Shown: positions 2,640 through 64,000, numbered from the stretch's first letter. The stretch is 64,000 nucleotides of DNA from Emiliania huxleyi CCMP1516 (GCF_000372725.1 NW_005202368.1:294293-358292); one strand, 5' to 3'. Notes: generated from the letters alone by a model not told the origin. Made by a program: numbers and translations.

Positions 2640-2893
2640 TTGGTGGGTGGCAGCAGCGACCCTCTTGCTTGCTGCTGCTGCTGCCACTGAGCGTTCGGTT
2701 CCTCCATTAATTCTTGGGTGCCAAAATTCTTTTGTGCGTCTGTGTGTGCCAGTCCGCGCCAGTCTGCGCCCTTGTCGTGCCAGTGTGCTGTGAGACAGGC
2801 GTTGTAAGAATTCTTTTGTTAAATTCTTTTGTGCTAGAGGACGTTGCCGCGAAACCTCGACGAGGCTTTTGGTACGGAACATCGACGGAGGTC

Positions 2894-3534: not shown

Positions 3535-3602
<68 letters not shown>

Positions 3603-4250: not shown

Positions 4251-5164
4251 GCCGAGATCGATCCGAGATGCGGCCCACATGACATGACATGTGCATGTGC
4301 ATGTCATGTGCATGCAGCCGAGGGGGGGGGGAAGCGGGAGACGCAGGTCGTAGCCCGCGCCGCGGCCGCCGCAGAACGGCGGCTAAATAAATAATAAAAA
4401 ACGGCCAACTCTACTAGGAGATGGGTAAACGAAGCGGAAAGTCCACACGCGATCTTTGTGCAGGGTTCTTTGTGGGGGGGTGGTCGGCGGCTAGCCGGGG
4501 TCGTCCTCCCGAAGAGGGACTAGCACTAGCCGTCCTCCACGTTGTCCTTTGGGTAGACCGGCGGCTCTCGCACACCGCGTCTTTACCTTAGGCGAGGAGT
4601 ACTGGGACGCGCAGCTGCCGCGCTTCTCGCCCCAGCGGCTCGTCGTCGACTACCTGTAGTTGTGTCGCGGCCAGCTCTGTGAAACAATGCGAATTTCGAC
4701 GCTGACCTCAGACATCAAAAGGGCGGTTGTGAGCAACACTGCTCGGCGACTGCCGGCACACTGTGAGACCATGGCGCACGGGTGGGAGGTAAAACCAGCC
4801 CACTTCTTCTCTTCCACCTGGTGGTGCGATGGGCTCCCTCCCTGTCAGCGCGCTGTCAGCCCTCTGTAGCATCAGGTGCAAAGGAAAGTGAGTGGGCTGA
4901 GGTAAAACCACGTCCCCCCCTTGCCCCACCAGGGCACCCACCGCCTCCTCCTCAATTGGGTCCCTCCCCCTCTTCCTCCCCCGCTCCCCCGCGACGCCCC
5001 CCCCTTCCCCCCCCCCCCGCCGCCCCCCCCGCCGCCTCCCCCCTCCCCGTCCCGCGCCCCGGGCCCGGGCGCCTCCTCTCCGCACCCCGCACACAGCACC
5101 CCCCCATTCGCGGAGAGCACCCCGTCCTCTTCATGCAGCCCCTGGCTGTCCCGGCCATACGGCT

Positions 5165-6025: not shown

Positions 6026-7341
6026 GCTCGAGAAGCTCTACTGCGAGTCAGGCTCTTCGATCAGGAAATCCTGCGAGCTCGCCTCCTCTTCGTGATCCTC
6101 GGCCTCCGGGTCTTGGGGCTCTGAGCTAGCCCCCTGTCCCGACAGCTCGCCCCCCCCGCCTCCACCCCCCCCTCGTCTGCGTCGGGGTCCGGGTCGTCGC
6201 CTCGGTCCGCAGCGTGCCGAGCCCGGCTGGCCGGGCGGTCGTTGCCCTCATCAGCGCCAGAGGGGGGCCGATCCCCCCCCCCCCGCTAGGTCCTCGCTAT
6301 CCGTCGCGCTCAGACCGCCGCTATCCGCGGCCTTCTGCCCTCCTGGGCGCCGCGCGGGCCCCCCGCCCCCCCCTACGCCCGAGCCACCCTGGCCGTCGCT
6401 CTCGTCACCACTTCCGTCCTCCCCATCGGGTGGCTCGGGCGACCGGCCCGCCCTCGCCGGAGTCGACAGTCATCTCGTCGGGCTGGTCATCCTCCTCGCC
6501 CTCCAGCTCGTAGTCGGAGACCTCCCGCCCCCCTGCTCCTCGCGCTCGTCGTCGCCCGCCACTCCCCCGGTCCATGCCGATTGTCCGTTCGCGGTGCGCC
6601 ACTGGCTGACGGTCTCCCATATTGCCATGGCGGCGTCGGCGCAGCCTGCTGTGATTTCGCGGGTCACCGTCGACCTGGCCACCGCCGGATCTATGTTGCC
6701 CCTCGCCTCGGCCACCCGCTCCGCCTCCCTTCTGACGGCCCGCGTGCTGGGTTCCGGGACCATCCCTCCTATCACCGAGAGCGTCGTGAGCCAAGCCGAC
6801 GGGAGCTCTCGCCCCTGCCCCAGCCCGTCGATTGTCCGTCGCGCCGTCCGCACAGCCTCCCCGTAGGCCCCCTCGTCACGTATTTGCGCCATGCGATCTA
6901 GTGCTGCCCGGACTCTTCGTTGTTGCCCAGTCGCCACAGAGGGGTCCCCTCGGGGCCCGAGGCTCCAGACGGACCTCAGCGCTAGCCTCAGATCCGTGCG
7001 ATCGACCGTCGCGCAGGCCGAGCACTCCTCCTTGTCGGCGGCCGCATCGCTACTACAGTAGTCGGCAGGCAGCCCCATCATGTTGGCGCACACCATCATG
7101 ATCGCTCCGGTGACCGTGGCCCTTCTGGCCCCACCAGAGGACCCCCGCCACCTCTCCGGCGCCCTTGCGAGCGCGGCCCACACGCTGCCCGGCGCGCCCT
7201 CGCAGATCGCGTCCCAGTCCATGACGGGGAAGCCGTCCACGCCTGTGTGGCATGGGCTGCCCGAGGTCTCGCCAGCCAGCCTGCGTGTCGACCATGCCGC
7301 TAGTCTGGAGCGGCTCATCCTCAGCGGGTTGCGGTCCCCCG

Positions 7342-15424: not shown

Positions 15425-15592
15425 AGGTAGGTAGAAAGGTGAAGAAAACAGTCAGGCTTGGACTGGACACCAACGCGGTATGGCGGTAGGCGGCCCCAAG
15501 AGTTGTTCACAGCTGGGGGGGGAACAACTCTCACAGAAACTTCTGGGAAACAACTCCCACGAGAACGCCGTTCCCAGATCTCCCACCTTTCG

Positions 15593-18500
15593 ATGCGCCT
15601 CCTTCTGCTCGGCCTGCTTGCGGGGCTCGCGGTCGCCGAGAGCGGCCCGACCCTCATCCCTGGCGACGCCCTCGGCTCGGACTCGGCCATGCACGCCAGC
15701 ATCGACCACGACTGGAAGACCTGCTCCGCCTTTCACGGCTGCCGCGGCGGCGACCGTTCGGAGAAGATGGTGAGTGTCGAACTCGCCGGCGCCGGCGCGG
15801 CCGGATCGAGCGCACATCACGCGCCGAACGCCTCCGCGTCGCTCGCCGGCGCGGAGGCCCACAAGTGCACCATGAACGAGTGCCCGTGCGCGACCAGCGA
15901 GTCTGGGGACGCAAACGTGTGCTGCAAGGACAACAAGTTGAGCGAGTTCTCGATCGAGGGCGATTCGGCGCGCGCCACTCCTGGCCGGCCCTCCCTCCGC
16001 GAGGGCTGGTGGTGCTGCGCCTCTGCGGCGGTGCTGCTCCTCGAAGCGTGCGGCGCCTGCTGGCTGCTGCTGGGGCAGCGGGCGCCGCGCTCCGGTGCAG
16101 CCTCGCGGCAGCGATCCAGCAAGGCGGTCCGTCCCCGGCTGAGCAAAAAGGGCCGCGGCCGCGGCTCGCACCGGCGACCGAAGCCGCGCGGACCGCAGGT
16201 GCGCAAATGCAAGTCGCCGTCCGGCTCTGGCGGCACTGGCACTAGCGCTGGCGCCGCCGCCGGCGCTGGCATCCGCTGCACTGGCATCCGCGCCGGTCTC
16301 AAGCAGGCAACCGGCCGCGTGCAGAGCAGCTTTGCGGGTGCCCCATGCGCCACCATGTGCATCTGGTCTTGCTTCATCCGCACCGGCCTCTGCGCGTCTG
16401 TGGCCGGCCCGGCGGCCAGCAGGGCGGTCCTTCCCCGGCTGAGCAAGAGCCGCAGCTCGGTGGCCTACTTGCTCCTGCTGCTCGTTTTCTTCCCCGTGGC
16501 TCGGGCTGGCTCGGGCGAGGCTGGCTCGGGGGGCGAGGCTGATTGCGCGGACGATGCAGCGTTCAGAGATCCTTACGGCTACAGTTGCTCCGACTGGCTC
16601 GGATATGATTGCAGCTTCTACACGGGCTACAGTCCAGTTGAATTGGCCATTCTCCGCGAAAACTGCCCTCTCAGCTGCGGCAGTTGTTCGCCACCGCCGC
16701 TCCAGCCGCTACCCCCGCTGCCGCCACCACCACCCTCTGCACCGCCGACGCCACCTCTGCTCCCGCCACCACCGCCGCCGCCACCTCTGCTCCCGCCACC
16801 ACCGCCGCCGCCACCTCTGCTCCCGCCACCACCGCCGCCGCCGCTGCCTCCGCCGTGTCCGCCGACGCCGCCACTGTCCCCCTCCCCCTCTCCCCTCTTC
16901 CTCGACCAAACCCCATCCGCAGACGGCCGCCGCCGCTTCCCGCTGCCGGCCGTCCGCCCAAGCGGCAGTTTTGCTTACCCGCCGTTGCCAAACTGCTCCG
17001 CCACCAACAGGGTCGGGTGCATCGGTGTCCCAATGACGGTTCTGTCGCCGCTGGCAGCCTGGAACGGCTCGCTGGAGTTGGCGGGCGATGTGGCCGACTA
17101 CTTCACTTCGGCCGTCGATGGAGACTTGGGGTTCACCATCCCTGGAGGGAGCAGCAACACTTACTCCACTTCGGTGGCGGACGTCGACGGGGACGGGAAC
17201 ATGGACGTCGTCGTCGGCAACTACGGCGAAGAGAACCAAGTCCTCTTTGGGAGCGCGGGCGGAAGGACCTTCTCCGAGGTCGCCCTTCCTGGAGGGAGCA
17301 GCAACACTTACTCCACCTCGGTGGCGGACGTCGACCGGGACGGGAACATGGACATCGTCGTCGGCAACTACGGCGAAGCGAACCAGGTCCTCTTTGGGAG
17401 CGCGGGCGGAAGGACCTTCTCCGAGTTCGCCCTTCCTGGAGGGAGCAGGAACACGTACTCCACCTCGGTGGCGGACGTCGACGGGGACGGGAACATGGAC
17501 ATCGTCGTCGGCAACTACGGCGAAGCGAACCAGGTCCTCTTTGGGAGCGCGGGCGGAAGGACCTTCTCCGAGTTCGCCCTTCCTGGAGGGAGCAGCAACA
17601 CTTACTCCACCTCGGTGGCGGACGTCGACCGGGACGGGATCGTGGACGTCGTTGTCGGCAACCACGGCACAGAGAACCAGGTCCTGTTTGGGAGCGCGGG
17701 TGGGAGGGCCTTCTCCGAGGTCGCCCTTCCCGGAGGGAGCAGGTACACTTACTCCACCTCGGTGGCGGACGTCGACCAGGACGGGAACATGGACATCGTT
17801 ATCGGCAACCTCGGCGCAGCGAACCAGGTCCTCTTTGGGAGCGCGGATGGAAGGACCTTCTCCGAGTTCGCCCTTCCTGGAGGGAGCAGGTACACTTACT
17901 CCACCTCGGTGGCGGACGTCGACCGGGATGGCATCCTGGACATCGTCGTCGGCAACTCCGGCGCAGCGAACCAGGTCCTGTTTGGGAGCGCGGGTGGGAG
18001 GGCCTACTCCGATGTCGCCCTTCCTGGAGGGAGCAGGAACACGTACTCCACCTCGGTGGCGGACGTCGACCAGGACGGGATCNNNNNNNNNNNNNNNNNN
18101 NNNNNNNNNNNNNNNNNNNNNNNNNNNNNNNNNNNNNNNNNNNNNNNNNNNNNNNNNNNNNNNNNNNNNNNNNNNNNNNNNNNNNNNNNNNNNNNNNNNN
18201 NNNNNNNNNNNNNNNNNNNNNNNNNNNNNNNNNNNNNNNNNNNNNNNNNNNNNNNNNNNNNNNNNNNNNNNNNNNNNNNNNNNNNNNNNNNNNNNNNNNN
18301 NNNNNNNNNNNNNNNNNNNNNNNNNNNNNNNNNNNNNNNNNNNNNNNNNNNNNNNNNNNNNNNNNNNNNNNNNNNNNNNNNNNNNNNNNNNNNNNNNNNN
18401 NNNNNNNNNNNNNNNNNNNNNNNNNNNNNNNNNNNNNNNNNNNNNNNNNNNNNNNNNNNNNNNNNNNNNNNNNNNNNNNNNNNNNNNNNNNNNNNNNNNN

Positions 18501-21500
18501 NNNNNNNNNNNNNNNNNNNNNNNNNNNNNNNNNNNNNNNNNNNNNNNNNNNNNNNNNNNNNNNNNNNNNNNNNNNNNNNCGGTGGCGGACGTCGACCGGG
18601 ACGGGAACATGGACGTCGTCGTCGGCAACTACGGCGCAGCGAACCAAGTCCTCTTTGGGAGCGCGGGCGGAAGGAACTTCTCCGAGGTCGCCCTTCCTGG
18701 AGGGAGCAGGAATACGTACTCCACCTCGGTGGCGGACGTCGACGGGGACGGGAACATGGACATCGTTGTCGGCAACTACGGCGAAGCGAACCAGGTCCTG
18801 TTTGGGAGCGCAGGTGGGAGGGGTTTCACCGAGTTCGCCCTTCCTGGAGGGAGCGGGCAAACTCGCTCCACTTCGGCGGCGGACGTCGATGGGGACGGGA
18901 TCCTGGACATCGTCGTCGGCAACAAGTACGCAGCGAACCAAGTCCTCTTTGGGAGCACGGGCGGAAGGACCTTCACCGAGGTCGCCCTTCCTGGAGGGAA
19001 CACAAGTACTCGCTCCACCTTGGTGGCGGACGTCGACGGGGACGGGAACATGGACGTCGTTGTCGGCAACTACGGCGCAGCGAACCAGGTCCTGTTTGGG
19101 AGCGCGGGCGGAAGGAACTTCACCAAGGTCGCCCTTCCTGGAGGGAGCAGGAACACGTACTCCACCTCGGTGGCGGACGTCGACGGGGACGGGATCGTGG
19201 ACATCGTGGTCGGCAACTTCGGCACAGAGAACCAGGTCTTTTTTGTTGGCTTCTGCCCGACGGGAGGTGCACAGGTCCACGGCAAGAGCTGGTGCTACAA
19301 GTGCCCTTCCTTCATGGGACTCGCGGGCGCCTCCTGCGTGGAGTGCCTCCCCGACTTTGTGCAGCAGCCCGGGAGCGGAGAGCTCTGCGCATCAGACCCC
19401 TGCCCCCTTGGCGAGCGCCCGTTCGGCAGCGACGCGTGCACCGCTTGCAAGGACAAGCCGGGCGTCTTCTACAACACCAGCGCCGCCGCGGCGCGCACAG
19501 AGCGCGACTCAACCACATGGATTCAACCCAGTTGCGTGGAGTGCCCAATGGGCAGCGTCGCGAACGGTGTCGCCGTCGACGAGTGCTTTGCTTGCGCTGC
19601 GGGTTCGTACCAGAACCTGATTGGCCAGGCCGAGTGCAAGCGGTGCCCCGCGGGCCAGTTTCAGCCGGAGCGCGGACAGACGTCGTGCGACAGGTGTGCC
19701 ACGGGCGGATACTGTGATGATGCCGAGAACTGTGGCGGCGGCTTCACGCCCTGCCCAGCGGGTACATTCAACGAGAAGACGGGTAGCAGCTCGTCCGACG
19801 CCTGTCAGCCGTGCCCCCCCGGAACCTCTAGCCCGACCGCCGGCGCAGACAGCAGCGAGACGTGCGCGAGCTGCCGTGCTGGGACGTTTGGTGGCGAGCC
19901 CGGGCTGAGTGAGTGCACGGACTGCCCTCCCGGCGCGTCGTCAAACCAAGGGAGCGATTCGTGCGAATCGTGTGAGGCGGGCTCTTACGCCGCCAACGCT
20001 GGCCAGGGCCAGTGCATCCCATGTCCTCATCCCCTCGGTAGTGGGCGCGGCGACGTCATTTGCTCCGTCTGCATGAAGGACTACTACCTGCTCTCGAGCG
20101 CCGACCCCGACGACATCTTCAAATCCCCGACCGATTACTGCAAGTCCTGCCCGCCGAACGCCGACTGCCCAGTCAACACGACTCTCCAGTCCCTCGGTAT
20201 CCCGGCCGGCTTCTGGCGCGCTAGCCCCTTCAGCGCCGTGTTGACAGAGTGCGGCGGCTTTGGCGGCGATGGCGAGGCCGGCAAGCAGCGATGCGCCGGC
20301 AGCGAGGCAAAGGCCTCTCGTCGCCGGAGGATGGAGGCTTCGGACGAGTACTGCGCTTCCGGCTTCACTGGCCCGGAGTGCCAGCTCTGCGTCGCAGCGA
20401 ATCACTACCTCGTCGACGGATACACGTGCGAAGAATGCGCTCCGCGCGCCGCTGTGGCTGGCCGCATTGTCGCCCTCGTCATCGGTGCCTGTATTGCCTG
20501 TGGCCTCGCGGTTTGGGCCTACAGCATGACGAAATGGCGGAAGGAGCGCTTCATCGGCCGCGTGCTCCGCTTTGCCGATCGTGCCGTCTACATTTACGTC
20601 GCGATCGGCCTCACGGCCAAGACCAAGGTTCTAATAGATGCTCCCGTTGGTTGGGAACCGATATTAGCAAGCGCCGACCTCGGTGATAGTCCATATTAGC
20701 AAGCTAATAACCGACCTGATAGGTGCTCTTTGGATTCTACCAGATCTGCACCGTGTTGTCCTCCACCTACTCGGCGCGGCTGCCGCCAGAGTACACGGGC
20801 TGGACCGACAAGCTGGCTAATACGGTCTCAATCGACTGGTCTGGCCTTTTCCTGCCGCAGCAGTGCCTCGGCTACGATTTGCGGCTGCTCGCCATCGCTC
20901 TCTCGCCCGTCGCCTTCATCGCACTGCTCATGGCAGCCGGGATAAGCCTGCGGCTCTACCGCTGGCGTGCCGCGCCGCCACCGCGCCCAATGGAAGCGAC
21001 GCCGGGAGCCGACACCGATGCAGCATTCGGCCTCGTGGAAGCATCGATGTCGGTGATGTCGGCGATCGCTGACGCGATAAACGCAGACGAGGACGCTCCG
21101 CGTGCGGCGCCGTGGTATGCTGAGGCGGCCCTCGGCGTCCTCGATCTCACGCCTGCCGGTTTGGTGCTCATCTTCTGCTTCGTGCCCTCCATCAGCGCCT
21201 CCATCTTCCGCGCGTGGTCATGCAAGGTAATGCCCCCAAACTGTTGACTGCTGCCGAAACCGACCCCCCTTCAGCGCTCGCCGTGTGTCGCTCATAGGCC
21301 TACACCATCTCTCCGCCCGACTCGCCTCTCGAGCAGGTCTCCTACATGCGGCTGGACGCGAGCGTCGAATGCTACACCGAGGATCACGAGTCCATCGCCG
21401 ACCTCGCCATCGGCCTTATCGCCCTGTGGCCTGCGGGCTCGCTGATCCTCTTCACTTCGCTCCTCGTCGCCTGCTACAAGCCGCTACAGGCCAAGAGGCC

Positions 21501-23488
21501 GAATGCCCTGACGCGGGCCACCGGCTTCCTCCACCGGGAGTACAAGAAAAAATGCTACTGGTGGGAGGTGGTCGAGCTGGCGCGCAAGCTCGTGCTCACG
21601 GGCTTCGTGCTGCTGATCCCGGAGAAGAGCGCCTTCCTTCGCCTCGTGGTGGCGACCCTCGTCTGCTCCTTCTACGCCGTCGTGCTCGCCGTCGTGCGGC
21701 CCTTCAAGCGGGTCGAGGATAACGTGCTGGCCGTGGTGCGCCAGCCACCCCTCACCCCCTTTACACTTGCTAAAGCGAGGCACGGCTTGGATTGCAGGCC
21801 ACCAGCCTCGTGCTCCTCCTCCTCTTCCTCGCCGCGAACTGGACGACCATCTTCCTCGGTATCATTGAGCGCTCCAGCGTCGACACCGCCGATGCAGTCC
21901 TCGGCTTCGATAACCTGTCTGAGATCATCAACTCGATGCTCGTCCTCGTCGGCGTGACGCTGCTCTTCTTCCTCATCGGTGCCGTCTTCTCCGCCCGCCA
22001 CGCCAAGGAGGTTCCCACGATCCGCCTCGTCTCGACCAACCAGCCGCCCGAGCTGAGCGTCGGGATGGGCATCACGTGGCATCTCTTCAACAGCCACATC
22101 TGGAGTACCGGTCAAGACGCCGTCGCGGTCATCAAGAAGCAGCTGCAGATCCTGCTGCCTGGCATCAAGATCTTCCTCGACGCGCGCGCATGCTGCCCAG
22201 TCGCGCTGCATGGCGAGCAAAGCCCCTCTGACGCACCGCGGTGCGCGCATAGGTAGATGACCTCAAGGATATCGGAGCGCTCGAGGAGTACATCCAGCGC
22301 TCGCAGGTCATCCTCTTCTTCCTCTCTAGGGGCTACTTCAAGTCCAGGGCGCCTCATGCTTCTATCCTGCCTCTGTCATAGCCCAAGCTCCCTTGCCTCA
22401 CCCCGTGCCCGCCTGTGCGCCATAGAACTGCCTTCGAGAGGTCCGCTCGTCGCTCGAGATGGACAAGCCGCTCGTCCTCGTCCAAGAGGCCGACCCGGCC
22501 AAGGGCGGCGGGACGCTACCAGCGCTGCGCGCAGAGTGCCCCGAGGAGCTCCAGCCCGACATCTTTGACAAGGACTGGCCGCTCACGATCTGGTACCGGA
22601 TCAAGGAGTTTCAGATTGTCTCGCTCAAGATCACCGCCGAGGCGCCCCCGCCCGCAGCCAGAGCCCCTCCGCAGTCCTCTCCCTCTCCCGACCAACCCCA
22701 CTTGAACTCTACAGGCGCTGCTCCTTTGTTCGCCCAACTTTCTGGACAGCACCTCCCTTCCGCTCACAGTGACGGGCGAGCTGCGGATCAGGGCATTCGG
22801 CTTCTCCACGTTCGCAAAGGTCTGGGCCTCTCCGGCCAACGCCGGCGCAAAGGAGCTGGCCGATGAGCTCGTCGCCGCCTTTCCCGGCCTCACCGTCTCC
22901 ACCGCCGAGGAGGCTGGCGACGCGACCCACATGCTGCTCTACCTCAACGAGCACAGCTTCAGCGACGAGCGGCTGGCCGAGCAGGTTACGCAGGCGCGCC
23001 AGGACAGGCTGCCGATCGTCATGGCGCACGAGAACGACCCGGACCGCGGCGGCTGCGAGTTCGCCAAGTTTTTTGAGACCACGCCGCAGGTGGAGCGAGT
23101 GACACCCGTCCTGAGCCTCCCCTCCCCCCACAAACCTCTCCTTCCAACGCCGCAGGAGCTCATCGCGGGCGGGCTCTACAAGGACCTCGCGCGCTCGTGC
23201 TTCCCCGGGCGCCACCGCGAGGCGCGCGCTCGCCCCCTCGCCGCCTGGTGGGCGCTCACCGGCCGTCACGCCGCGCTGCTCAACCCGCCCCCCGCGTAGG
23301 CGTCGCTCGTGCTCCTCGCAAAGGGTCTCGGCGCGACTCCGGTCAAGAGCGCCGACCTCAGATCGAGCATCGTGCGCCGCACGTCAACGGCCTTCCGCAG
23401 CCTTGGCGGCGTCCGGCTCCGCGCCTCAGAGCGCTCAACCTCGGGAGAAGCCGAGGCAGCGACGTCGGCATCGGCAGAGCACGTGTAG
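15593..23488 (+). CDS. Receptor-like protein A: ShKT-like Cys domain, poly-Pro, FG-GAP repeat array, GCC2/ephrin-receptor-like Cys-rich repeats, about 8-9 TM helices, TIR plus a second TIR-like domain
   Basis: Signal-like MRLLLLGLLAGLAVA at 15593 (true start uncertain). Inferred introns: 20628-20722, 21227-21297, 21736-21797, 22182-22252, 22349-22425, 22642-22714, 23090-23155, 23222-23299. Splicing gives 'WHLFNSHIWSTGQDAVAVIKKQLQILLPGIKIFLDVDDLKDIGALEEYIQRSQVILFFLSRGYFKSRNCLREV' (TIR). Stop TAG ends at 23488. The frame across the N gap cannot be verified. Confidence 0.85.
17141..19245 (+). repeat. Coding tandem repeat of 147 bp (49-aa FG-GAP/VCBS blades), at least 12 units, interrupted by a gap
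   Basis: Units start at 17141, 17288, 17435, 17582, 17729, 17876 and 18023, and after the gap at about 18696, 18843, 18990 and 19137. Each has the Ca-binding-type motif DVDGDGxxD. Confidence 0.95.
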
Positions 23489-34600: not shown

Positions 34601-35276
34601 CCGCTCCGAGGTGCAGCTCACCGACCGGTGCGAGGAGGAGTTTGACGGACTCTGGACCAACATCGACGCGTCCAAGATCGCAGAGGCGGCGGCGGGGTGG
34701 CCGGATTTAGCGGCGCGCGCTGTCAAGGACCTCGCCAAGGCGGGAGACGGGCAGAAGAGCCTCTGCCACGACAGCTTGCGCAACCGCTGCACGCTACCCG
34801 AGGCTCTCACGACGCTCCGGGGGCTGCTGTGTGGCGCACAAGGCGGGGCGGGGGTGGAGGAGGCTGCGCCGGCACCTGGAGACGAGGCCGCTGCGGCAGC
34901 CGCCCGCACCACCGGGTACGAGCCTTCGCCGCTCTCGGTGCAGGTGCGCGGCATGCGCATGGGCGGCGACGCGCAGGCGCGCATCCAGGACAACATGATG
35001 CTCGCCTTCAAGACGCTGATGCCGCGCCTCGACGCTGCTTACGCCTCGCGCTCTGCGGCGGCGCCCGACAGCTTCGAGGAGCGCATCAACTTTTGGCACC
35101 GCGAGTGCGGCCTGCCGACAGAGCTGCGGAGCCAGCTGCACTCGCTGCGCATCTGGGCGAACGCGGCGAGGCACCACGACGCGGCGAGGTGGCGGAGGGA
35201 CGGGCCGCGCAGCGAGGGGGAGGCTTCGCGGCTCGTGGCCGCGGTGACGGAGACGATCGGGGCGATCGAGGGGTAA
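31659..35276 (+). CDS. Ankyrin-repeat / Pelle-IRAK(RLK)-like protein kinase with an N-terminal SH3-like module and a possible HEPN/DUF4145-like C-terminus
   Basis: Intronless 1205-aa ORF. Two ankyrin blocks (3 and 5 TALMxAAxxGH-type repeats). Kinase motifs 'LSDLTAATDGFAEGKLIGSGGFSHVY', 'LTWRQRVRIA' and 'HRDVKPDNILLD'. C-terminal 'LHSLRIWANAARHH'. Confidence 0.9.
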   Translation: MSLSAAGAGAAADAPLLGQRVLLGGLSSRPELNGQRGVAQSFEGGRYAVALEGGGESVRVRPGNLSPAAAERASSGAAAAPDAVIAAAERGEEEAVLAWLEGGGRADATYERDGLSGLTLLMGAANNGHERVVEMVLRGGAEVNLQNSSGWTALMMAAFQGHERVVDLLIRRGAEVNLQSSKGVTALMHAASFGRPAVVRRLLRAGANTAARNASGKTAPQLAKEKGNTECVEAFKKHVQEVVAGRLTATAADGEGAGGASSGGASSAGSSVAKTLSPAVAAGRASSGGVVVSDEVVAAAERGEEEAVLAWLDSGGRADATYESDGVSGITLLMVAACYGHERVVELLLRHSAEINLQNSKGGTALMVAARTGHERVVDLLLQRGAEIDLQNSSGNTALMAAAGYGHERVVELLLQRGAEINLQESGGSTALMFAAGNGRERVVELLIRRGAEINLQDSDGDTALMTAAFGHPAVVRRLLRAGADAAARNASGTTALQMAKEQGHAACVRALGEHAAAAAAAEKAAKEAAWVAGAEAREAERAAAEATAARHAEALLAEEEAEKEERAKESKKGKKKKKKKSGGGEADNEAPGPSATADLQPPTPPPAPSPPPADAAAIAAADEALQQAVAAGSYEGLASALEAYSSLASPAVLAAARRARDKLKEARRRDSQRLRKAHGAAMGALKSLDTADSPSALRAGIAAARPHVGALPALAEEVSAAESKLGELSVAAAPAAAEAAVARPVEIALSDLTAATDGFAEGKLIGSGGFSHVYEASADLHLSLAAPPQLRHLPLVVKRAKSGQSGGLSRAELEVKLLKAVSHPHLLPLLGYCLSPDGVCLLSPLMRGGSLEARLRISDPDRAAQLRRLGMVEPPRPLTWRQRVRIACEATEALVYLHSKGIVHRDVKPDNILLDEELTAVLADTGFAKDQRPDASVRCRSTALYMTTGYLCPSITKGGEYSSKTDGYAIGITLLVCLTSRSEVQLTDRCEEEFDGLWTNIDASKIAEAAAGWPDLAARAVKDLAKAGDGQKSLCHDSLRNRCTLPEALTTLRGLLCGAQGGAGVEEAAPAPGDEAAAAAARTTGYEPSPLSVQVRGMRMGGDAQARIQDNMMLAFKTLMPRLDAAYASRSAAAPDSFEERINFWHRECGLPTELRSQLHSLRIWANAARHHDAARWRRDGPRSEGEASRLVAAVTETIGAIEG

Positions 35277-44526: not shown

Positions 44527-45762
44527 CTAATTTGGCTGCGCCAAAGCTGGGCCAAAGACATCGAGATGGATGCTCCGCGCGCCCGCCGCCTTGAGCGCCG
44601 CGGACATGTCCGCGAGGAAGGGCGGCGGGCCGCAGAGGAAGAAGTCGCATTCCGCCAGGTACGGCTTGAGGGCGCCCTCCACGAGCGCTGCCGCCTCTGG
44701 CCGCCCGCCCGCGTCTGTGTAGTGGAAATGCGTCCCGGCACTGCTAGCCTCCATCTCCTTCCGAAAGGGGTGCGCCGCCTCGTCCCTGTCTATGTGCAGG
44801 ACGAACTTGACCTGCTCGGGCGCACTGTCGAGAAAGCACTTCATCGGCGTCGCGCCCACCCCTGCCGAGCAGAGCACCGCCGGGCGGCCGCTCAACTTGA
44901 ACGTGCCAAAAGGTGCGGAGACGCCGACGACGTCGCCCTCCTTCATGCCGTGGAGGGCGGAGGAGACGAAGCCGCCCTCGACAAGTTTCGGGCAGCACTG
45001 CAGGTAGTCCTTGCCGGGCGCGTTCGTCACGGTGTAGTGGCGTGGCGTCGAGCCCTGCTTGTGCAGGTGCAGCGTCAGGAACTGGCCTGGCGTGAAGTCG
45101 ATTGGTCCGGCGCCGTCGACAGGCTTGAAGGTGAGCTCCACGCAGTCCGTCGCGACGCGCCGGGTCCCAGCCACCCTGAAGTCCTTCACCCCCTTCCAGC
45201 CGCCACGCCGCCCCGCCGACTCGGCGTAGAGCTTTGCCTCCAGCTCACAAAGGTTCTTGGCGAGAGCAAGCACGGCCTCGCTCCAACCCTCGCCAACCTC
45301 TGGCGTGACAGCGTCGCCCATGACGTGCCCGATAGACTCCATCAGGTTCTGGTGCACGATCGAGTAGTGGCGCGGCTTGACGCCGAGGCCGCAGTGTTTG
45401 TGAGCGATGATCTCCAGCGCCCCCGTCAGCTTGGACAGGTCGTCGATGGAGGTGGCGTAGGCTACGACTGCGTTGGCCAGCGCCATGCGCTGCAACGGCG
45501 GCTCCTTGAACTGATTGGCCGGGTTGAAGAAGGCCTTTGCTTCAGGGCTGTTGCTGAACATGCGAGGGTAGAAGTCGTCGACGATCTCTCTCACCTTGGG
45601 TGCGACCGCCGGTGCTGTCGCCTTGACGATCGCGGCGAAGGGGCAGCCAGACATAGTCACCGCCGGAGACGTCGACTTGACGATTGCGGTGGAGGGACAG
45701 CCAGACATGGTGTCTGCCAGAGATGTCGAGTAGCCGATCGCGGCGGAGGGGCAGCTAGACAT
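44527..45762 (-). CDS. hmp: Flavohemoglobin (nitric oxide dioxygenase), intronless
   Basis: Globin domain (FYxxMF, FNxANQ, IAHKH, HY), FAD-binding motifs (PGQF, RHYTV, GFVS) and NAD-binding motifs (SAGVGATPM, LCGP, FGP). Alternative starts at 45762, 45708 and 45654. Confidence 0.95.
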   Translation of the reverse strand: MSSCPSAAIGYSTSLADTMSGCPSTAIVKSTSPAVTMSGCPFAAIVKATAPAVAPKVREIVDDFYPRMFSNSPEAKAFFNPANQFKEPPLQRMALANAVVAYATSIDDLSKLTGALEIIAHKHCGLGVKPRHYSIVHQNLMESIGHVMGDAVTPEVGEGWSEAVLALAKNLCELEAKLYAESAGRRGGWKGVKDFRVAGTRRVATDCVELTFKPVDGAGPIDFTPGQFLTLHLHKQGSTPRHYTVTNAPGKDYLQCCPKLVEGGFVSSALHGMKEGDVVGVSAPFGTFKLSGRPAVLCSAGVGATPMKCFLDSAPEQVKFVLHIDRDEAAHPFRKEMEASSAGTHFHYTDAGGRPEAAALVEGALKPYLAECDFFLCGPPPFLADMSAALKAAGARSIHLDVFGPALAQPN

Positions 45763-46411
45763 GGCGCGGTGGCTAACGAGCCGGACGCCGCGCACGGAGG
45801 TCATGGGTGAGGTCAAAGGCCGGCAAGGAGATTGCTGACACGTTCAGGCAGGACGTGTTGGCGGCGCCCTTATTGCAAGATAAAAAATCTGGGTGCACCC
45901 AAGTGTCAAGCGTTGAGCACCGGTGTCTCTGGGAATGGTAATAGTATTCCGCATTCATTGCGAGGGCGGACGGTCTCGGGAACCGTACCCATACTACTCA
46001 AAAGTACAATATCTACCACAAAGCATGCAGCAGGTGGGCGTGCGGAGCGTCGGGCATCGGCTCGCCATCCCGGGAGCTTCCCTTGAGCGGCCCGGGCTGG
46101 GACCGACCGCGGGAGGCTGCCTGCCTGCACCAACCAACCAACGGACATGAGCGATCCGCAGTCGTCGAAGAGCCCCCCCCCCCCCCCCCCCTGCTAGTGT
46201 CTGTCGTCGTTCCTACCCCTGATCCTACCCCACGGCACGCTAATGTCTGTCATCTCCAGCGCACAAAAGAAAAATTTGGTTATCCCGCAGGAAACCGGCG
46301 CTCAACCAACACCCCCTTGTTACACCCCACCACCCGAGCTGCAGCAGGTGAGGAAGCTGTCCGCGTCTCTGCTCGGCACGCAGTGGGCCGGGATCGAGTC
46401 GCCCCCCGCCA

Positions 46412-56923: not shown

Positions 56924-58275
56924 ACGTCACTGCATCCTCTGCCGGTTCCTCCCGTCGCCTCTTCTTTGTTCGAATGTTTTTCAATCCATCCTTCACGAAG
57001 CCCTCCCATGTAGCTAGCGTTCTTTGCGAATGTCTCGAAATGGCCAGCAGGCGCTGTCTGCTCGCGGCCTGTGCCCCCGGGCCGCTCGTCCTCCTCGCCC
57101 TTCTTTCGTCCTCCCGTCCCTCCCCTCCACCATGGCCTCCTCGGTACTTCTTTCTCCATCCGCCTCGCCCTGCCTTTTCGTATCGTGCCGTTCGCCCTCC
57201 ATTCGGTGACCTCCATGGCTGTCCGCCTCCTTTTGGGTGGCGCTCTCGATACCGTTGGGTCAACCTCGACGTCGCTGTCGCCCTCCCCGTCCCCGCCGTC
57301 GCCTGTGCCTCGGTTCGCGTCATTGGTAGCGTTTCCGTTGCCCCCTCGTGCTCCGCCGTCGCCCTCTCTGCTCGGGCCGTTCGCGATTTCGCTCCTCCTG
57401 CGTGTCGCCCCTCCGTCTCCTCCCCTGCCTTCGTCGTCATCGTCGCTGTCGCGTTTAAGCCCTCCGGTCCCTCGATTCCCTCGTCTATCCCCTCCGCTGC
57501 GTCGTCCCAGTTTATATCCTCATCTCTGTGCGTGTTTTCGTTCCCTCCCCTTCTCCATCGTTGTCGCCTCCGTCGACTGTGGCGCTGCCTCTTCCCTCGC
57601 CTCCGTCCTCCTCGTCTCGCCTGGCCATCGTCCCGTGTCTCCTCGTCCTCGCCATCGCCTTGGCCGTTGTCTACCTGTTCATCGTGTCCCCTGCTGGTGG
57701 TGGCATCGCCGTTGGCTTCCTCTCTCCCACTTTCCTCCCTGCCCCTCTCGCTGTCTGGTGTTAATGGACCCCCTTCCTCTCCCTCGCCGCCGTCACCGTC
57801 ACCATCCCCGTCGCTCCCGCCCTCCATCCCCGCCGCCCTTTGTCTCACACTCGTCTCTGCCATGTCCGCCGTCGCCGCCGTCCTGTCTGCTGCTCTGGGC
57901 TCCGTTGTACAGTCGCTTATTGTTGCTCAGGATTAGCTCTCGCACCAGGACAGCCTCCTGCTCGTTACTTTGGCTTGCCGATATGCATCCAAAGTTCCAC
58001 GCTAGCTCCTCCTTCGTGTGACGAGGTTTGCCACGAAAAAGTCTCCCCAGCTGGAAATGGGGGTAACTGGGCGAAATGAGCAAACACTGGGGACGGGACT
58101 GGCATGGCACTAACACAGGTACACCACGGGAGCCGCCTAAGAATTTAAGGACAACTCTCTCTCTCTCACAGCAGACAGGCTCGACACAGGCGCGGACGGC
58201 AAAGCATCTCAAACCCTAAGTCCACCCGCACGGCCGAACACGGACCGCGAGACCGTTGACACCGCAACACACTAG

Positions 58276-61200
58276 CTAGACGGATTGCTGACCCGCCGAT
58301 GTCTCGTGGCCGACGTCGCCACCGTCGTGGTCGCCGCCGCCGCCGCGGACCGACCGTTCGAAGAGGCCGCCAACGGCGCGGCAGACGAGGCTCTTCCAGC
58401 GGCGGAGGTCAACCCTTGCCCGGGCCGGAGTCGCGCCGAGGCCCTTAGCCACGAGCACGAGCGACACCTATGGAGGGGCTCGCGGGCGTCACGCGGGGGA
58501 AACCGGCGCGGAGAACGCCCTCCGCTGCCGCGCGCCTCGTGGTGGCGCCCCGGGTAGCACGATTTCGCCAGGTCCTTGTAGAGGCCTCCGGCGATGAGCT
58601 CCTGCGGTGCATTGGAAGGAGAGGTGGAGGGCATGGGACACGGCGGGATGGCCGCGCCTCTGAGAGAGTCGCTCTCCTGCGGCGTGGTCTCAAAGAAGCG
58701 CGAGAAGGGCACGCCGCCCTTTTCGGGGTCGTTCTCGTGCGCCATCACGATCGGCAGCCTGTCCTCGCGCGCCTGCCTGACCTGCTCGGCCAGCCTCTCG
58801 TCCGACCAGGTGTCCTCGTTGAGGTAGAGCAGCATGTGCGTCGCGTCGCCGGCGCGGCGCGGCGCCGAGCGGCGCATGATACTGGAGAAGCGGCCCGAAG
58901 CCCGGGATGCGACAGAGCCGCGGTCCTCGGCCGTGGAGACGGTGAGGCCGGCGAAGGCGGCGGCGAGCTCGTTGGCCAGATCCACCGACCCCGCGTTGGC
59001 CGGCGAGGCCCAGAGCGTCACGGGCTTCGCAAGGGCGAACGAGTGGATGCGCGGCTCACCCGGCACGTACAGGCCGAGGGCGTCCAGCCCGTCGTAGTCG
59101 GGCGAGCAGAGGAGCACCGCCTGTGGGTGCAAAGCGGGAACGTCCAGATACTAGAGAGAGAGGGGCGCGGTGTATGAACTAACGGCGCCTCGACGATGGT
59201 CTTGAGCGAGACGCGCTGGAACTCCTCGATGCGATACCACGTCGTCTGCGTGCGGCCCTGGTCAAAGATGTCCGACTGCAGTTCGTCAGGGCACTCATCG
59301 CGCAGCGCCTGCAGCGTCCCGCCGCCCTTGGCCGGGTCTGCTTCTTGCACGAGGACGAGCGGCTTGCTCTGCTCGAGCGTCGCCCGGATCTCGCGGAGGC
59401 AATTCTGGCGGCGCGCGCGGAGCGAAGGGTGAGCTGCGGGGAGTGTCGAGGGGGGGCTCGGCGGCTCGCGCTGCGTTGGGGAGGCGTGGCCGGGCGGCGT
59501 GCGAGCGCCGGTGAGCGGAAGTAGCCCTGCGAGAGGAAGAAGAGAATCATTTGCGTGCGCCGGATGTACTCCTCGAGCGCCCCGATGTCTTTGAGATCAT
59601 CGACCTATGAGTACAAGACGCGCTGTCAGAGGCGCTGTCTCCCTGTACGCGGCGCGATGAACATGCGCGCGCGCGCGTCGAGAAAGACTTTGATGCCTGG
59701 CAGCAGCAGCTGCAGCTCGCTCTTGATGACTCCGACGGTGTCTTGACCAGTCGACCTATTCGGGGTCGGGGATGCCTCATGCGCGGTTCGGACCCTCTTC
59801 TTCCCTCCGCAGCTGTGATTCACCAAATGTGCGAGAGGAAGAGGTGCCACGCGAGGCCCCGCGCGAGGGTGAGTTCGGGCGGCTGCTTGGTGGAGACAAG
59901 GCGGATCGTTGGGACCTTGGCCGTGAGGCGGGCGGCGACGACGGCGCCGGCGAGGGAGATCAAGAGCGCAACGCCGGCCAGGCCGATCATCGTGCTGACG
60001 ATCGGGTTAAGCTTGCTGAAACCGAATACGGCAGAGGCATCATCGGTTCCGGAGCGCTCCACGATTCGGAGGAAGATGGTGGTCCAATTGGCGCCGAGGA
60101 AGACGATGAGGAGGATGAGGCTCATCGCGACGGCGAGGACAGAATCCTCGACACGCTTGTACGGCTTGGTGGCGGCGACGAGCGCGACGTAGCAGGAACA
60201 GATGAGGGTTGCCACCACGAGCCGAAGCAAGGCATTCTCCTCCGGGATCAGCAGGACGAAGCCCGTCAGCACGAGCTTGCGCGCCAGCTCCAACGCCTCC
60301 CACCAGTAAAAGGTCGTTTTGTACTCCCGATGGAGGAAGGCGGTCGCTCGCGTCAGCGCCGTCGGCGTCTTGGCCTGCAGCGGCTTGTGGCAAGCGAAGA
60401 GGAGCGCCGTGAACAGGACCAGCGAGCCGACGGGCCAGAGGACGATGAGGCCGATGGCGAGGCCGGGGATAGACTCGTGATCCTCGGTGCCGCACTCGAC
60501 GCTCGCGTCCAATCGCATGTAGGAGACCTGCCGCAGCGACTCGCCGGGCGGAGAGACAGTGTAGGCCTATCAGCAGCAACCCCCTAGGACTGAGGGTGGT
60601 GTGTATGCAATGGCATTCCTCAGCTGGAGGCGCCTGGCAACTCCACGCGCGGAAGATGGAGGCGCTGATGGAGGGCACAAAGCAGAAGACGAGCACGAGG
60701 CCGGCCGGCGTGAGGTCGAGGAGGCCGGCCAGTGCGTACCACGGCCTCGCGTGCGGCGCCGGGGCGGCGCGCCAGCCGTGGAGCCGCAGGCTTACTCCAG
60801 CGATCATTAGCAGCGCTATGAGGGCGATGGGCGAGAGGGCGATGCCGAGCAGCCGCAAACCGTAGCCGAGGCACTGCTGTGGCAAGTAAAGGCCCGACCA
60901 GTCGATGGAGACGGCGTCGGCCACTGCGTCGGTCCAGCCCGTGTACTCTGGAGGCAGACGCGTGGAGTAGGTGGTGGACAAGACGGTGACAATCTGGTAG
61001 AAGCCAAACAGGATCTTGAACTTGGCCGTGAGGCCGATCGCGATGTACCAGTAGACGGCACGGTCCGCGAGGCGAAGCAGACGGCCGATGCAGCGCTTCT
61101 CCCGCCACTCTGTCATGCTGTAGCAATACGCCGCGAGGCCGCACGCGACGCAGAGGCCGAGGATGAGGCCGACGATGCGGCCAGCCGCCGCGCCGCGCGG

Positions 61201-64000
61201 AGCGCACTCCACGCACGCGTCGCCGTCGGCAAGGTAGTGATTATCCGCGACGCAGAGCTGGCACTCGGGGCCGGCGAAGCCAGGGGCGCAGTACTTTGAG
61301 CCCGCCTCCACCATCCTCCGGCGGCGAGAGGCCTCTCTCGCCACCGGCTCGCTGCCGGCGCATCGCGTCTTGCCGGCCTTGCCATCGCCGCCAAAGAGAC
61401 GGCACTCTGTCATCACGGCGCTGGAGGGGCTGGCGCGCCAAAAGCCGCGCTTGACGCCGAGGGTCTCGAGGGTGGTATTGTCTGAGCAGACAGCGTGCGT
61501 CGGGCAAGGCTTGCAGTACTTGGTCGGGGATTTGAAGATGTCGTCCGGGTCGGCAGTCAAGGTCGGCAGGTAGTAGCCGCCCATGCAAAACGAGCAGGTG
61601 CTGCTGCCGTCGGCCGAGCTGAGGGGGTGAGGGCACGGGACGCAAAGGCCCTGGCCGGCGTTGGCGGCGTAATTGCCAGCCTCGCACTCGTCGCACGCGA
61701 AGCTGCCTGCCTTCGACGAGGTGCCGGGAGGGCAAGGCTCGCACTTGGCCTGCCCCTTGTTTTCGGCAAAAGTGCCAGGCGAGCACGGCGTCGGCTCGAT
61801 GCTGCCCGTGGAGCAGGCGCTGCCGGCGGGGCAGGCCGTGCACTCGCCCGCGTCGGCGAGGTCGGTCGCGTTCGCGTAAGTGCCGGAAACGCAAGGAAGC
61901 GCCGCCGCCGCGCCAACGGCGCAGTAGTGACCCGGCAAACACGCCTTGCACTCCGTCTTGCCGGTCTCATTCTGGTACGTGCCGCCGGCGCAGGGCGTGC
62001 ACTCGCCCTGCCCGTACGCGTCCGTGTACGACCCCTTGGCGCACACCGACTGCTCGGTGGAGCCGGCGGCGGCGAAGTGGCCCGGAGCGGCGTCGGTGCA
62101 CTCGCTCGCGGCGGTGAGGTTTGTGGCGTTCGAGTACGACCCGGCGGAGCAAGCAAGGGGGACTTCCGCGGTCCCTCTCGGGCAATAGCGGCCAGCAACG
62201 CAGGGCAGCGGCTCATAGGTCGCCTCTGTGGGGCACTGGGAGCCAGCGGGGCAGGGGCCGGCGCAGCTGCTGCTCGACTGGTCCTCGGGGTCGGCCGAGC
62301 CGAGGAGGCCGGCGGCGCAGGCGAAGGGGAAGTCCTGCTCGACGGGGAGAAGCGGCAGCTGGTAGAGGCTCTTGCCGAGGAGGGAGGGATCGCCGCCGGT
62401 CTCGTTGTTCCAGTTGCACGGCTGCACAAAGGTCGTGTCCTGGCAGTGCCACTCGCTTTTGACGTCGAGGGTGAGCGCGCAATGATCGCGGTGCTCGAGG
62501 CAAGCCGTTTGCTTCGGTGTAGGTTTGCCGTTGACGTCGTTGCCGTAAGAGCACGCCTCCCGGTACACCTCGCAGCGCGCGTTTGGCAGCCAGCGGCCGG
62601 CCGGGGCGGGGAGGGTGTAGGAGACCTCGCCAGCGAGTAGGAAGACGGAATTCCCCTGACCCTCAGCAGAGCAGCCGCTGATGAGGGTGCCGTCGCTCAG
62701 GGAGGTGCGCCCACCCGCCGAGTAAAGGCCGCCGCCAGACTCTGTGGCGATGCAGTTGGAGATGGTTGAGCGGGCCAGGCTGGCTGAGCCCGACGCAACG
62801 TACACTGCTCCGCCTCGCCTGGCATTGCAATCGGAGATGGTGGAGTCGGTCACGTTGAGGTCGGTGCCCCACGTGTATGTCGCTCCGCCGTCCTGCCAAG
62901 GAGGCGCGACAGGCCTTGTGGAGGGGCTGCAAGCACGAGGGGAGGCGCGGCGAGGCGGGCGGTGACTCTCCTTGCCTTGTCTTGAGCCTACTCACCTCTT
63001 CATGGGCGGTGTGGAGCTGCAAGGAAGTGGCTAGCTCTACGCGGCGCACAAAGTAAGCCGAGCAGCCCGTCGCCTTCGAGCTGGTTATCGAGACCGCACC
63101 GCTCTCAAGCGCGTTGACGACGCCGCCATACTGCGGTTGCGAGGAGAGAGCGGGGTGAGGCAGCCGTGGCCCTCTCCATCGCTCGCCCCGCTGCTATGTG
63201 GTGCAGGCTGCAGGGCGGCGGCTAGCTCTAAGCGGCGCACAGTGGCAGAGCAGTTCCTCAGGGTCGAGTCGATTATCGAGACCGCACCGCTGTTCACCGC
63301 GTAGACGACGCCGCCGTACTGCGGTTGCGAGGAGAGAGTGGGATGAGGCCAGCCGTGTCCCTCTCTATCTCTCGCCCCGTGGCTGCGAGGCGCACCTCGC
63401 CAGCCCAGCAGCCAGTCACGGTCGAGCCGATTATCGAGACCGCACTGCTGTCAGACGCGTGGACGACGCCGCCGTACTGCGGTTGCGAGGAGGGAGAGCG
63501 GGATATTAGGTAGGCGTGCCCTCCCCATCTCTCGCCCTGCTGCTGTCCGGCACTGCAGGGCGGCTAGCTCTAGCGCACATAAGAAGCAGAGCAGTCTCTG
63601 ACCGTCGAGTCGATGATCTCGACGTCGCCTGCGCCTTTCGCGTTCACAGCGCCGCCCCACTGCGGTTGCGAGAAGAAAGCGGGGTGAGACTGCCGTGGTC
63701 CATCTCACGCCCCGCTGCCGTATGGCGCTACTGGAGGTGGCTAGCTCTATGCGGCGCACCCTTTCAGCCGAGCAGCCAATCACGTTCGATCTGGTTATCG
63801 AGACCGCACCGCTGTTCCACGCCCTGACGACGCCGCCGGACTGCGGTTGCGAGGAGAGAGCGGGGTGAGGCAGACGGGCCCTCTATTTCTCGCCCCGATG
63901 CCGTGCGGCGCTGCAGGGCGGGCTGCTAGCTCTGCGCGGCGCACCCGGCCAGCCAAGCAGCCCGTCACGGTCGTGTCGATGAGCGAGACCACACTGCGAT
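58276..64000 (-). CDS. Receptor-like protein B (5'-truncated by the window edge): right-handed beta-helix/PMP-like repeats, Cys-rich GCC2-like repeats, about 8-9 TM helices, TIR plus a second TIR-like domain
   Basis: Paralogue of 15593-23488 from the Cys-rich stalk to the C-terminus (RLDASVEC, FLHREYK, WHLFLSHIWSTGQD, KVFLDVDDLKDIGALEEYI, NCLREI, ELIAGGLYKDLA). Long exon 62892-60634. Upstream mini-exons of 78-81 bp encode GGVV/GGAV repeats. Confidence 0.88.

What the first reader, a model, noticed from the sequence alone, without database searches (positions are those of the whole stretch)
62893..64000. One-repeat-per-exon cassette array with homologous phase-0 introns in the receptor ectodomain
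Seen on the minus strand: exons 63760-63840 (SGGVVRAWNSGAVSITRSNVIGCSAER), 63579-63659 (WGGAVNAKGAGDVEIIDSTVRDCSASY), 63396-63476 (YGGVVHASDSSAVSIIGSTVTGCWAGE), 63241-63318 (YGGVVYAVNSGAVSIIDSTLRNCSAT) and 63050-63130 (YGGVVNALESGAVSITSSKATGCSAYF), plus a partial exon from 63945. Each encodes one beta-helix turn. All introns are phase 0 and begin GTGCGC (usually followed by ...AGAGCTAGC), and five of six end CTCGCAACCGCAG. Scaffold residues are constant while the residues after GGVV and at exon ends vary. Inference: exon+intron units were amplified as cassettes, so skipping or unequal crossover keeps the frame and could diversify the binding surface, recalling Dscam/VLR-type or brown-algal repeat-exon shuffling.
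Basis: partly seen in the sequence, partly recalled or inferred. Interest (0 to 1): 0.85.

Follow-up and report, generated by a model that had tools for sequence, protein, structure and literature searches.

The report
Shuffled beta-helix cassettes in algal receptors
A family of predicted surface receptors in what is likely the bloom-forming alga Emiliania builds its outer domain from one small exon per protein coil, separated by near-copies of one intron; the cassettes were likely swapped between related genes and likely selected to vary at a few positions predicted to face outward, which would give the alga a varied sensing repertoire, possibly for viruses or microbes.

Summary
Observation confirmed. 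Five 78-81-nt exons plus a partial one each encode one predicted right-handed beta-helix coil and are separated by homologous phase-0 introns. They belong to an intact gene: beta-helix, Cys-rich stalk, about seven membrane helices, TIR-like tail. Named relatives are Emiliania huxleyi hypothetical proteins.

The cassette is family-wide. The same intron occurs in 5 other distinct loci and as read-through in 45 of 71 protein hits. Complete arrays hold 1 or 3 cassettes, against at least 5 here.

Between the same paralogues, cassette introns are 63-87% identical while ordinary introns are 43-59%. Cassettes are as alike between genes as within them, and the genes are mosaics. This points to exchange between paralogues.

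Codons 1, 6 and 8 fit positive selection (omega about 6); neutral simulations with recombination reached that score 0 of 62 times, though one came close. One RNA-like run shows the cassettes spliced. Exon skipping, strain-level number variation, somatic rearrangement and the ligand are not shown.

It works like brown-algal LRR/TPR exon shuffling and fungal HNWD repeat exchange, on a new scaffold and receptor type. I found no description in the searched library.

The parts
63945..64000 (-). Partial cassette exon (window edge), RSVVSLIDTTVTGCLAGR from 63998
63841..63944 (-). Cassette intron 1, 104 nt, phase 0, GT-AG
63760..63840 (-). Cassette exon, 27 aa, one predicted beta-helix coil
63660..63759 (-). 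Cassette intron 2, 100 nt
63579..63659 (-). Cassette exon of cap-end type (GAGDVEIIDS), found here inside the array
   Evidence: 81-85% to cap ends of L002/L009, 57-65% to other cassettes
63477..63578 (-). Cassette intron 3, 102 nt
63396..63476 (-). Cassette exon, 27 aa; nearest relative is in another gene (L001, 88%)
63319..63395 (-). Cassette intron 4, 77 nt (internal deletion)
63241..63318 (-). Cassette exon, 26 aa
63131..63240 (-). Cassette intron 5, 110 nt
63050..63130 (-). Last cassette exon, 27 aa
62893..63049 (-). Terminal intron, 157 nt; cassette-type 5' end, different 3' end shared with L007
   Evidence: z 10.9 vs L007
60634..62892 (-). Large exon: last beta-helix coils, LPAPAG Cys domain, Ephrin_rec_like (GCC2/3-type) Cys-rich stalk, first three predicted TM helices
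   Evidence: (PF07699 E 5.6e-12, 5 stretches)
59824..60566 (-). Exon with four further predicted TM helices and the start of the TIR-like domain
59189..59755 (-). TIR-like domain over three exons (59677-59755, 59509-59604, 59189-59404), with a CLRE glutamate
   Evidence: RNA joints of relatives; contiguous paralogue L001 hits TIR_2 at E 7.5e-6, 26.9 bits, below cut-off 28
58272..59120 (-). C-terminal exons (58677-59120, 58536-58601, 58272-58467) to the stop; one GA-donor intron at 58602-58676
   Evidence: 75-nt joint
15443..23446 (+). Paralogue in the same window: same stalk-TM-TIR chassis (47-84% aa identity) with a 49-aa FG-GAP repeat array in the sensor position; no introns in the sequenced repeats, N gap 18083-18579

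Best explanation
The array is the variable part of a predicted beta-helix sensor in a large family of likely coccolithophore membrane receptors with a TIR-like tail; each exon encodes one predicted coil, and the shared intron likely serves as the homology at which cassettes are duplicated, lost and exchanged between paralogous genes, while selection likely diversifies a few residues predicted to line one face. Shown: phase-0 symmetric exons, homologous introns within and between genes, variable cassette number among paralogues, mosaic genes, hypervariable codons 1, 6, 8, 9, 26, 27 beside near-invariant neighbours, splicing of family cassettes in one RNA-like run. Inferred: crossover or conversion inside the shared ~100-nt intron always adds, removes or swaps whole coils in frame; residues 6 and 8 point out from the GGVVxA strand and 9, 26, 27, 1 sit in the flanking loops, the groove that binds ligand in solved beta-helices; ligand binding would signal through the TM bundle to the TIR domain. 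The ligand (viral or bacterial surface, glycan, or self/non-self marker) is unknown; non-self sensing is the most likely role. Diversification is taken to be heritable (germline), not somatic.
For: Intact 1,516-aa partial reading frame, no internal stop. Model of relative P0130: three strands per 27-aa repeat, pLDDT 88-98 by ten-residue block, best matches are right-handed beta-helices, Z 25.3, rmsd 3.2, 267 aligned. Same cassette in 6 of 11 metagenome loci, 5 distinct; intron read-through in 45 of 71 profile hits. Window vs L001/L002: 15 cassette-intron pairs 0.63-0.87 (z 9.7-17.6); 8 ordinary-intron pairs 0.43-0.59 (seven z <= 1.1, one z 3.0); fourfold-site differences 0.14 among cassettes against 0.37 and 0.52 in the TM exon. 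Intron identity within loci 0.846 (17 pairs), between loci 0.853 (74 pairs); 4 of 4 ordinary window exons have their nearest neighbour in another locus. Mosaic: the first 110 aa of the large exon are 77-80% identical to L007/L009 with no hit in L001/L002, while the TM4-7 region is 69% to L002 and 35% to L007. M1a vs M2a 2dL 28.05, omega 6.1, sites 1, 6, 8; holds on a star tree and without the window exons (18.5-22.2); 0 of 62 recombining neutral simulations reached 28.5. Site variability repeats in 45 further protein cassettes (Spearman 0.88); 56 distinct residue combinations in 57 cassettes. Run X2: depth 0 in 5 of 6 wholly intronic bins, 735-4,439 in exon bins. G. huxleyi TIR genes with extracellular or multi-TM N-termini respond to EhV infection (PMC12489294 section 20).
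Against: The selection test uses only 12 exons of 25 codons and my own code; one neutral simulation reached 27.0 and three more reached 19-22. A tree-free comparison with intron columns is weak: 9 of 50 vs 6 of 105 sites above 0.5 (p 0.02), 6 of 50 vs 4 of 105 above 0.6 (p 0.08). L009's four introns cluster together (0 of 500 shuffles as low; weak branch support), so local duplication also acts. The metagenome loci may be chimeric joins in a repetitive family and are not independent samples. TIR hits are below Pfam's cut-off. No link to infection for this family: a supplement search of PMC12489294 gave one Ephrin_rec_like gene and one beta-helix gene among regulated genes, neither tied to it. 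Outward orientation comes from strand alternation, not coordinates; the model is of a relative, not the window protein. Two metatranscriptome contigs cover exon 5 with intron sequence.
Confidence: 0.62

Rival explanations
1. Neutral repeat turnover: one recent cap+cassette module spread through the family by duplication; exposed residues drift under relaxed constraint, and the domain is a spacer or adhesin with no selected variability.
For: Recent tandem duplication is visible (two L009 exons 91% identical; near-identical repeats in P0143). The cap exon is also young between L002 and L009 (fourfold difference 0.25 vs 0.56 downstream), so one module spread could explain much. Recombination inflates codon tests (maximum 27.0).
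Against: First and second codon positions at sites 1, 6, 8, 9, 26, 27 reach pairwise differences of 0.5-0.77 at one or both positions, against 0.15 for intron columns and 0.14 for fourfold sites; codon 7, between them, stays GCG in 10 of 13. Drift cannot exceed the neutral rate.
Confidence: 0.2
2. Dscam-like alternative splicing is the main diversifier: near-identical splice sites let any cassette be skipped in frame.
For: All exons are phase 0-0 with the same donors and acceptors. X2 shows joints spanning one or more cassettes, e.g. 63317 to 63585 in 3 contigs. Brown-algal ROCO LRR exons are alternatively spliced (PMC11378527 section 11).
Against: Where letters between the sides are printed they differ from the window. 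The joints join a cap-end coil to a consensus cassette, the normal first junction of any paralogue. No conserved docking-type structure: z -0.04 to -1.15 for 5 introns and 0 of 16 pairs with a compensatory change. Only 15 of 214 joints were shown, so skipping is untested rather than excluded.
Confidence: 0.1
3. The intron is a mobile Introner-like element, or a constrained functional element, whose copies are alike for reasons other than cassette exchange.
For: A family of near-identical introns in many genes is the Introner hallmark (recalled). DNA runs show very high summed depth at the intron 3' end, 49,378 against about 45 for unique contigs in X8 (not a copy number).
Against: All 14 copies parsed from DNA sit at the same codon boundary of the same repeat. 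No other copy in the 64-kb window apart from a 24-nt match. The flanking exon scaffold is equally young at fourfold sites. No structure signal. An Introner origin of the first copy is not excluded.
Confidence: 0.05
4. Assembly artefact: arrays and mosaics are misjoins between paralogues at shared repeats.
For: The window is a draft with three N gaps; several metagenome contigs end inside arrays; no listed contig spans the array.
Against: Near-exact pieces across exon-intron borders in three runs. E. huxleyi CCMP1516 gene models carry 1 to 6 cassettes behind MAM, CUB or LamG domains. The frame is intact.
Confidence: 0.03

Closest known systems
Brown-algal ROCO LRR and NB-ARC-TPR exon-shuffled candidate immune receptors (PMC3341825, passages; PMC11378527, abstract and section 11)
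   Same: One repeat per exon, constant intron phase, a few positively selected positions per repeat on one face, variable repeat content across paralogues.
   Different: Here the repeat is a beta-helix coil (78-81 nt, phase 0, against 72 nt, phase 2), the protein is a predicted multi-TM surface receptor with a TIR-like tail and no ROC-COR or NB-ARC, and the introns are short homologues shared between genes. No inverted or intronic spare exons were seen; alternative splicing is not shown.
Fungal HNWD/NLR repeats with high internal conservation (Podospora; PMC13449251, passages)
   Same: Near-identical repeats with about four hypervariable positions under diversifying selection, concerted evolution, repeat exchange between genes, sensor modules swapped on a shared chassis.
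   Different: Those are cytosolic NLRs with WD40, ANK or TPR repeats; here the repeats are intron-separated beta-helix coils with no NTPase. Length polymorphism between strains is untested here.
G. huxleyi TIR receptor-like genes regulated in EhV infection (PMC12489294, passages, section 20, supplement search)
   Same: Same likely species; extracellular region or several TM helices before a TIR domain with a conserved glutamate.
   Different: The parts I read describe no beta-helix sensor, exon cassettes or shuffling; identity with this family is not established.
Right-handed parallel beta-helix proteins (polysaccharide lyases, tailspikes, adhesins; PF13229)
   Same: Fold (Z up to 25.3); GG-hydrophobic strand motif; groove formed by PB1 with T1 and T3 loops (PMC8952511, passages).
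   Different: No catalytic residue is conserved at the groove; it is the most variable surface. Sequence identity to solved chains is at most 17%.
Dscam1 and lamprey VLR (recalled; VLR also in PMC3341825 passages)
   Same: Modular cassettes that diversify a binding surface.
   Different: No mutually exclusive exon clusters, docking structure, incomplete germline gene or somatic assembly shown; the gene is readable as a complete in-frame array.

Membership tests
Brown-algal-type repeat-exon-shuffled receptors | One repeat per exon in constant phase | tested here: met
Brown-algal-type repeat-exon-shuffled receptors | Positive selection at a few sites per repeat | tested here: met
   (2dL 28; 0 of 62 recombining nulls, max 27.0); small sample
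Brown-algal-type repeat-exon-shuffled receptors | LRR or TPR repeat with ROC-COR or NB-ARC domain | tested here: not met
   beta-helix, Ephrin_rec_like, TM and TIR-like parts instead; N-terminus of the window gene lies outside the window
Brown-algal-type repeat-exon-shuffled receptors | Alternative splicing of repeat exons | tested here: inconclusive
   contigs only; skip-like joints fit paralogues
High-internal-conservation repeat sensors (HNWD type) | Repeats 80-100% identical with a few hypervariable positions | tested here: inconclusive
   ordinary exons average 0.80-0.82 nt identity, introns 0.85; hypervariable sites present; borderline on identity
High-internal-conservation repeat sensors (HNWD type) | Repeat exchange between paralogous genes | tested here: met
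   indirect, from relative divergence and mosaicism
High-internal-conservation repeat sensors (HNWD type) | Repeat-number polymorphism between strains | not testable with these tools
   no genome held; no contig spans the array
High-internal-conservation repeat sensors (HNWD type) | NACHT or NB-ARC NTPase | tested here: not met
   none in the window gene's exons or full-length relative P0028
Right-handed parallel beta-helix | Three-strand coils forming a beta-helix | tested here: met
   model of relative P0130; PF13229 E 1.5e-4, below cut-off
TIR-domain receptor | TIR domain | tested here: inconclusive
   TIR_2 26.9 and 26.7 bits against cut-off 28 in L001 and P0028; the two window TIR exons scanned gave no hit alone
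TIR-domain receptor | NADase activity of the catalytic glutamate | not testable with these tools
   CLRE present; its assignment as the catalytic residue is recalled
Dscam/VLR-type somatic diversification | Cell-level isoform or DNA rearrangement diversity | not testable with these tools
   no raw or long reads were offered
Introner elements | Copies at unrelated positions in unrelated genes | tested here: inconclusive
   14 of 14 parsed copies at one repeat boundary, but the search pattern required the exon start; none elsewhere in the window

The most novel reading that the evidence does not exclude
Emiliania keeps a genome-wide pool of interchangeable intron-flanked beta-helix cassettes and N-terminal modules that recombine fast enough, within blooms or clonal lineages and perhaps also by exon skipping, to give a combinatorial TIR-receptor repertoire that sets which viruses or bacteria a strain recognises: an anticipatory-style immune repertoire in a single-celled alga.
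Probability: 0.15. Interest if true: 0.92.

Novelty: new variant of a known kind. Interest (0 to 1): 0.72.

Why it matters
How bloom-forming algae recognise their giant viruses, and why strains differ in susceptibility, is open; TIR receptor-like genes were only recently tied to infection in this species. This family offers concrete candidates with a visible diversification mechanism and three named selected positions, so strain genotype can be tested against virus host range. It extends repeat-cassette diversification from brown algae and fungi to a third algal lineage and scaffold. It also shows that the family is mis-modelled: 45 of 71 protein hits contain translated intron, and the named E. 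huxleyi models are fragments.

Tried and rejected
No whole genome is held, so copy number and the upstream part of the array could not be read.

Viral contigs: one match to the intron end, a chance hit in an unrelated phage. Five of 11 metagenome matches (L003, L004, L008, L010, L011) were chance, and L006 repeats L005; these six were dropped before the counts.

RNA structure in the intron: no signal. A PDB sequence search with the cassette profile gave only E 2.1. The Foldseek 'pdb' search was never run because the queue was full; the fold rests on VIA-align. The top structural match is a complex whose peptide appears from a search listing (PMC12643943) to be designed, so it says nothing about a natural ligand.

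Summed contig depth was rejected as a copy number; it shows only 'many copies'. Skip-like joints in X2 were rejected as proof of skipping. The four metatranscriptomes showed joints only in the 3' part among the 15 of 78 listed.

Literature: searches found no description of this cassette family; the library lacks most subscription papers, and one supplement of PMC12489294 was too large to read. That GC and GA donors are common in E. huxleyi is recalled; one search did not confirm it. Earlier scan notes returned nothing. No complex prediction was sent, since no partner is known.

Full report
Observation. The exons, peptides, phases and splice motifs are as reported. Introns 1-5 are homologous far beyond shuffles (0.60-0.83 against 0.47 +/- 0.03), and the ~185-bp unit occurs nowhere else in the window. 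Three independent runs hold near-exact pieces across exon-intron borders.

The gene. Downstream on the minus strand I built a 14-exon partial model of 1,516 aa with no internal stop. It runs: cassettes; a large exon with the last beta-helix coils, a Cys domain and an Ephrin_rec_like stalk; about seven hydrophobic helices, one weak; a TIR-like domain; and a C-terminal domain. RNA contigs of relatives join across six of the 3' introns at matching or near-matching sizes. The TIR call rests on paralogues that score just under Pfam's cut-off. A full-length relative, P0028, has Beta_helix, Ephrin_rec_like and TIR_2. Of 10 profile hits looked up, 7 are named E. huxleyi CCMP1516 hypothetical proteins, so the window is likely Emiliania/Gephyrocapsa; this is inferred, as no genome is held.

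Fold. The model of relative P0130 has ten-residue pLDDT means of 88-98 over the three cassette-like repeats and three strands per repeat; the top matches are right-handed beta-helices (best Z 25.3, rmsd 3.2, 267 aligned). From strand alternation I infer that residues 5, 7, 13, 15, 20 and 23 face inward and that 6 and 8, with loop residues 9, 26, 27 and 1, form one outer groove. In solved beta-helices PB1 with the T1 and T3 loops binds substrate (PMC8952511, passages); naming the GGVVxA strand PB1 is my assignment.

A family-wide cassette. A pattern scan gave 11 metagenome loci, 6 real and 5 distinct. Two hold whole arrays: L002 has a cap exon, one cassette and an end exon; L009 has a cap exon, three cassettes and an end exon; every intron in them is the same element, and their N-terminal domains differ. 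A cassette profile found 71 representatives at E <= 0.001; 45 contain translated intron, and others carry up to 6 spliced cassettes behind MAM, CUB or LamG domains. P0162 matches the window's first full cassette except at codon 8. In run X2, whose library is not on record, depth is 0 in 5 of 6 wholly intronic bins (20 in the sixth) and high on exons, and loose ends read cassette end joined to cassette start; family cassettes are therefore spliced, and a 113-nt piece identical to the start of the large exon is present.

Cassettes are younger than their genes. Comparing the window with L001 and L002, 15 cassette-intron pairs are 0.63-0.87 identical, while 8 ordinary introns at shared positions are 0.43-0.59, seven at shuffle level and one at z 3.0. 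Fourfold sites differ by 0.14 among cassettes and by 0.37 and 0.52 in the TM exon. Identity is the same within and between loci (introns 0.846 and 0.853; permutation p 0.68), 4 of 4 ordinary window exons are closest to an exon of another locus, and one internal exon is a copy of the cap-end coil. L009's introns do cluster, so local duplication also occurs. The window gene is a mosaic: 77-80% to L007/L009 just after the array, 69% to L002 but 35% to L007 in the TM4-7 region. These data show past exchange or a recent spread of the module between paralogues; they give no rate, and metagenome misjoins cannot be excluded.

Selection. Codons 1, 6, 8, 9, 26 and 27 differ at replacement positions far above intron (0.15) and fourfold (0.14) levels, while codon 7 is nearly fixed. 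My codon models on 12 exons (the cap-type exon left out, codons 1-25) give omega 6.1 for 13% of sites, 2dL 28.05, sites 1, 6 and 8. The result holds with 13 exons, on a star tree and on the 8 non-window exons; 0 of 62 neutral simulations with recombination reached it, but the maximum was 27.0. A tree-free Fisher test is only marginal (p 0.02 and 0.08). The same sites vary in 45 further protein cassettes, and 57 cassettes give 56 combinations at sites 1, 6, 8, 9.

What is not shown. Skip-like joints in X2 fit paralogue splicing, and most joints were not listed. The intron has no conserved structure. No data address strains, somatic change or ligand.

Mechanism. Most likely (0.62): the shared intron and scaffold provide homology for in-frame gain, loss and exchange of coils between genes, selection diversifies the groove, and binding would signal through the TIR-like tail. 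A defence role is inferred from the architecture and from infection-regulated TIR receptor-like genes in G. huxleyi (PMC12489294, passages, section 20 and a supplement search), which I could not tie to this family. A paralogue at 15443-23446 carries the same chassis with a 49-aa FG-GAP repeat array instead, which suggests that sensors are swapped on a common receptor body.

Comparison and novelty. It works like brown-algal LRR/TPR exon shuffling (PMC3341825, passages; PMC11378527, abstract and section 11) and fungal HNWD repeat exchange (PMC13449251, passages), but lacks their repeat types and NTPase or GTPase domains and is a member of neither. Six searches found no description, within a library that lacks most subscription papers. 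Verdict: real, a new variant of a known kind, interest 0.72.

Noticed in passing
window 15443-23446 (+): Paralogue with the same stalk-TM-TIR chassis but a 147-bp FG-GAP repeat array (84-92% matches between copies, split by an N gap) as sensor, with variable positions 6, 7, 29 and 31 among 10 parsed repeats.
   Followed up: partly
window 58602-58676 (-): Intron with a GA donor; five other introns of the gene use GC donors; a 75-nt RNA joint matches.
   Followed up: partly
window 31659-35276 (+): Ankyrin-repeat protein kinase with 99-bp tandem repeats of 76-85% matches.
   Followed up: no
window 44527-45843 (-): Globin plus FAD-binding domain, flavohemoglobin-like.
   Followed up: no
window 9031-11520 (-): 829-aa open frame without a Pfam hit, containing RRRL motifs like those in the stalk of the receptor family.
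   Followed up: no
window 5918-6088: Two copies of an 81-bp repeat, unrelated to the cassette by BLAST.
   Followed up: no
P0148, P0130: Adjacent cassettes without translated intron: two in P0148 between intron-bearing neighbours, three in P0130; intron loss or a spliced source.
   Followed up: no
L009 2652-3936 (-): N-terminal lectin-like region between proline linkers ahead of the beta-helix cap; Pfam hits below cut-off.
   Followed up: partly
window 63029-63195: Two metatranscriptome contigs cover exon 5 with flanking intron sequence: DNA, pre-mRNA or intron retention.
   Followed up: no
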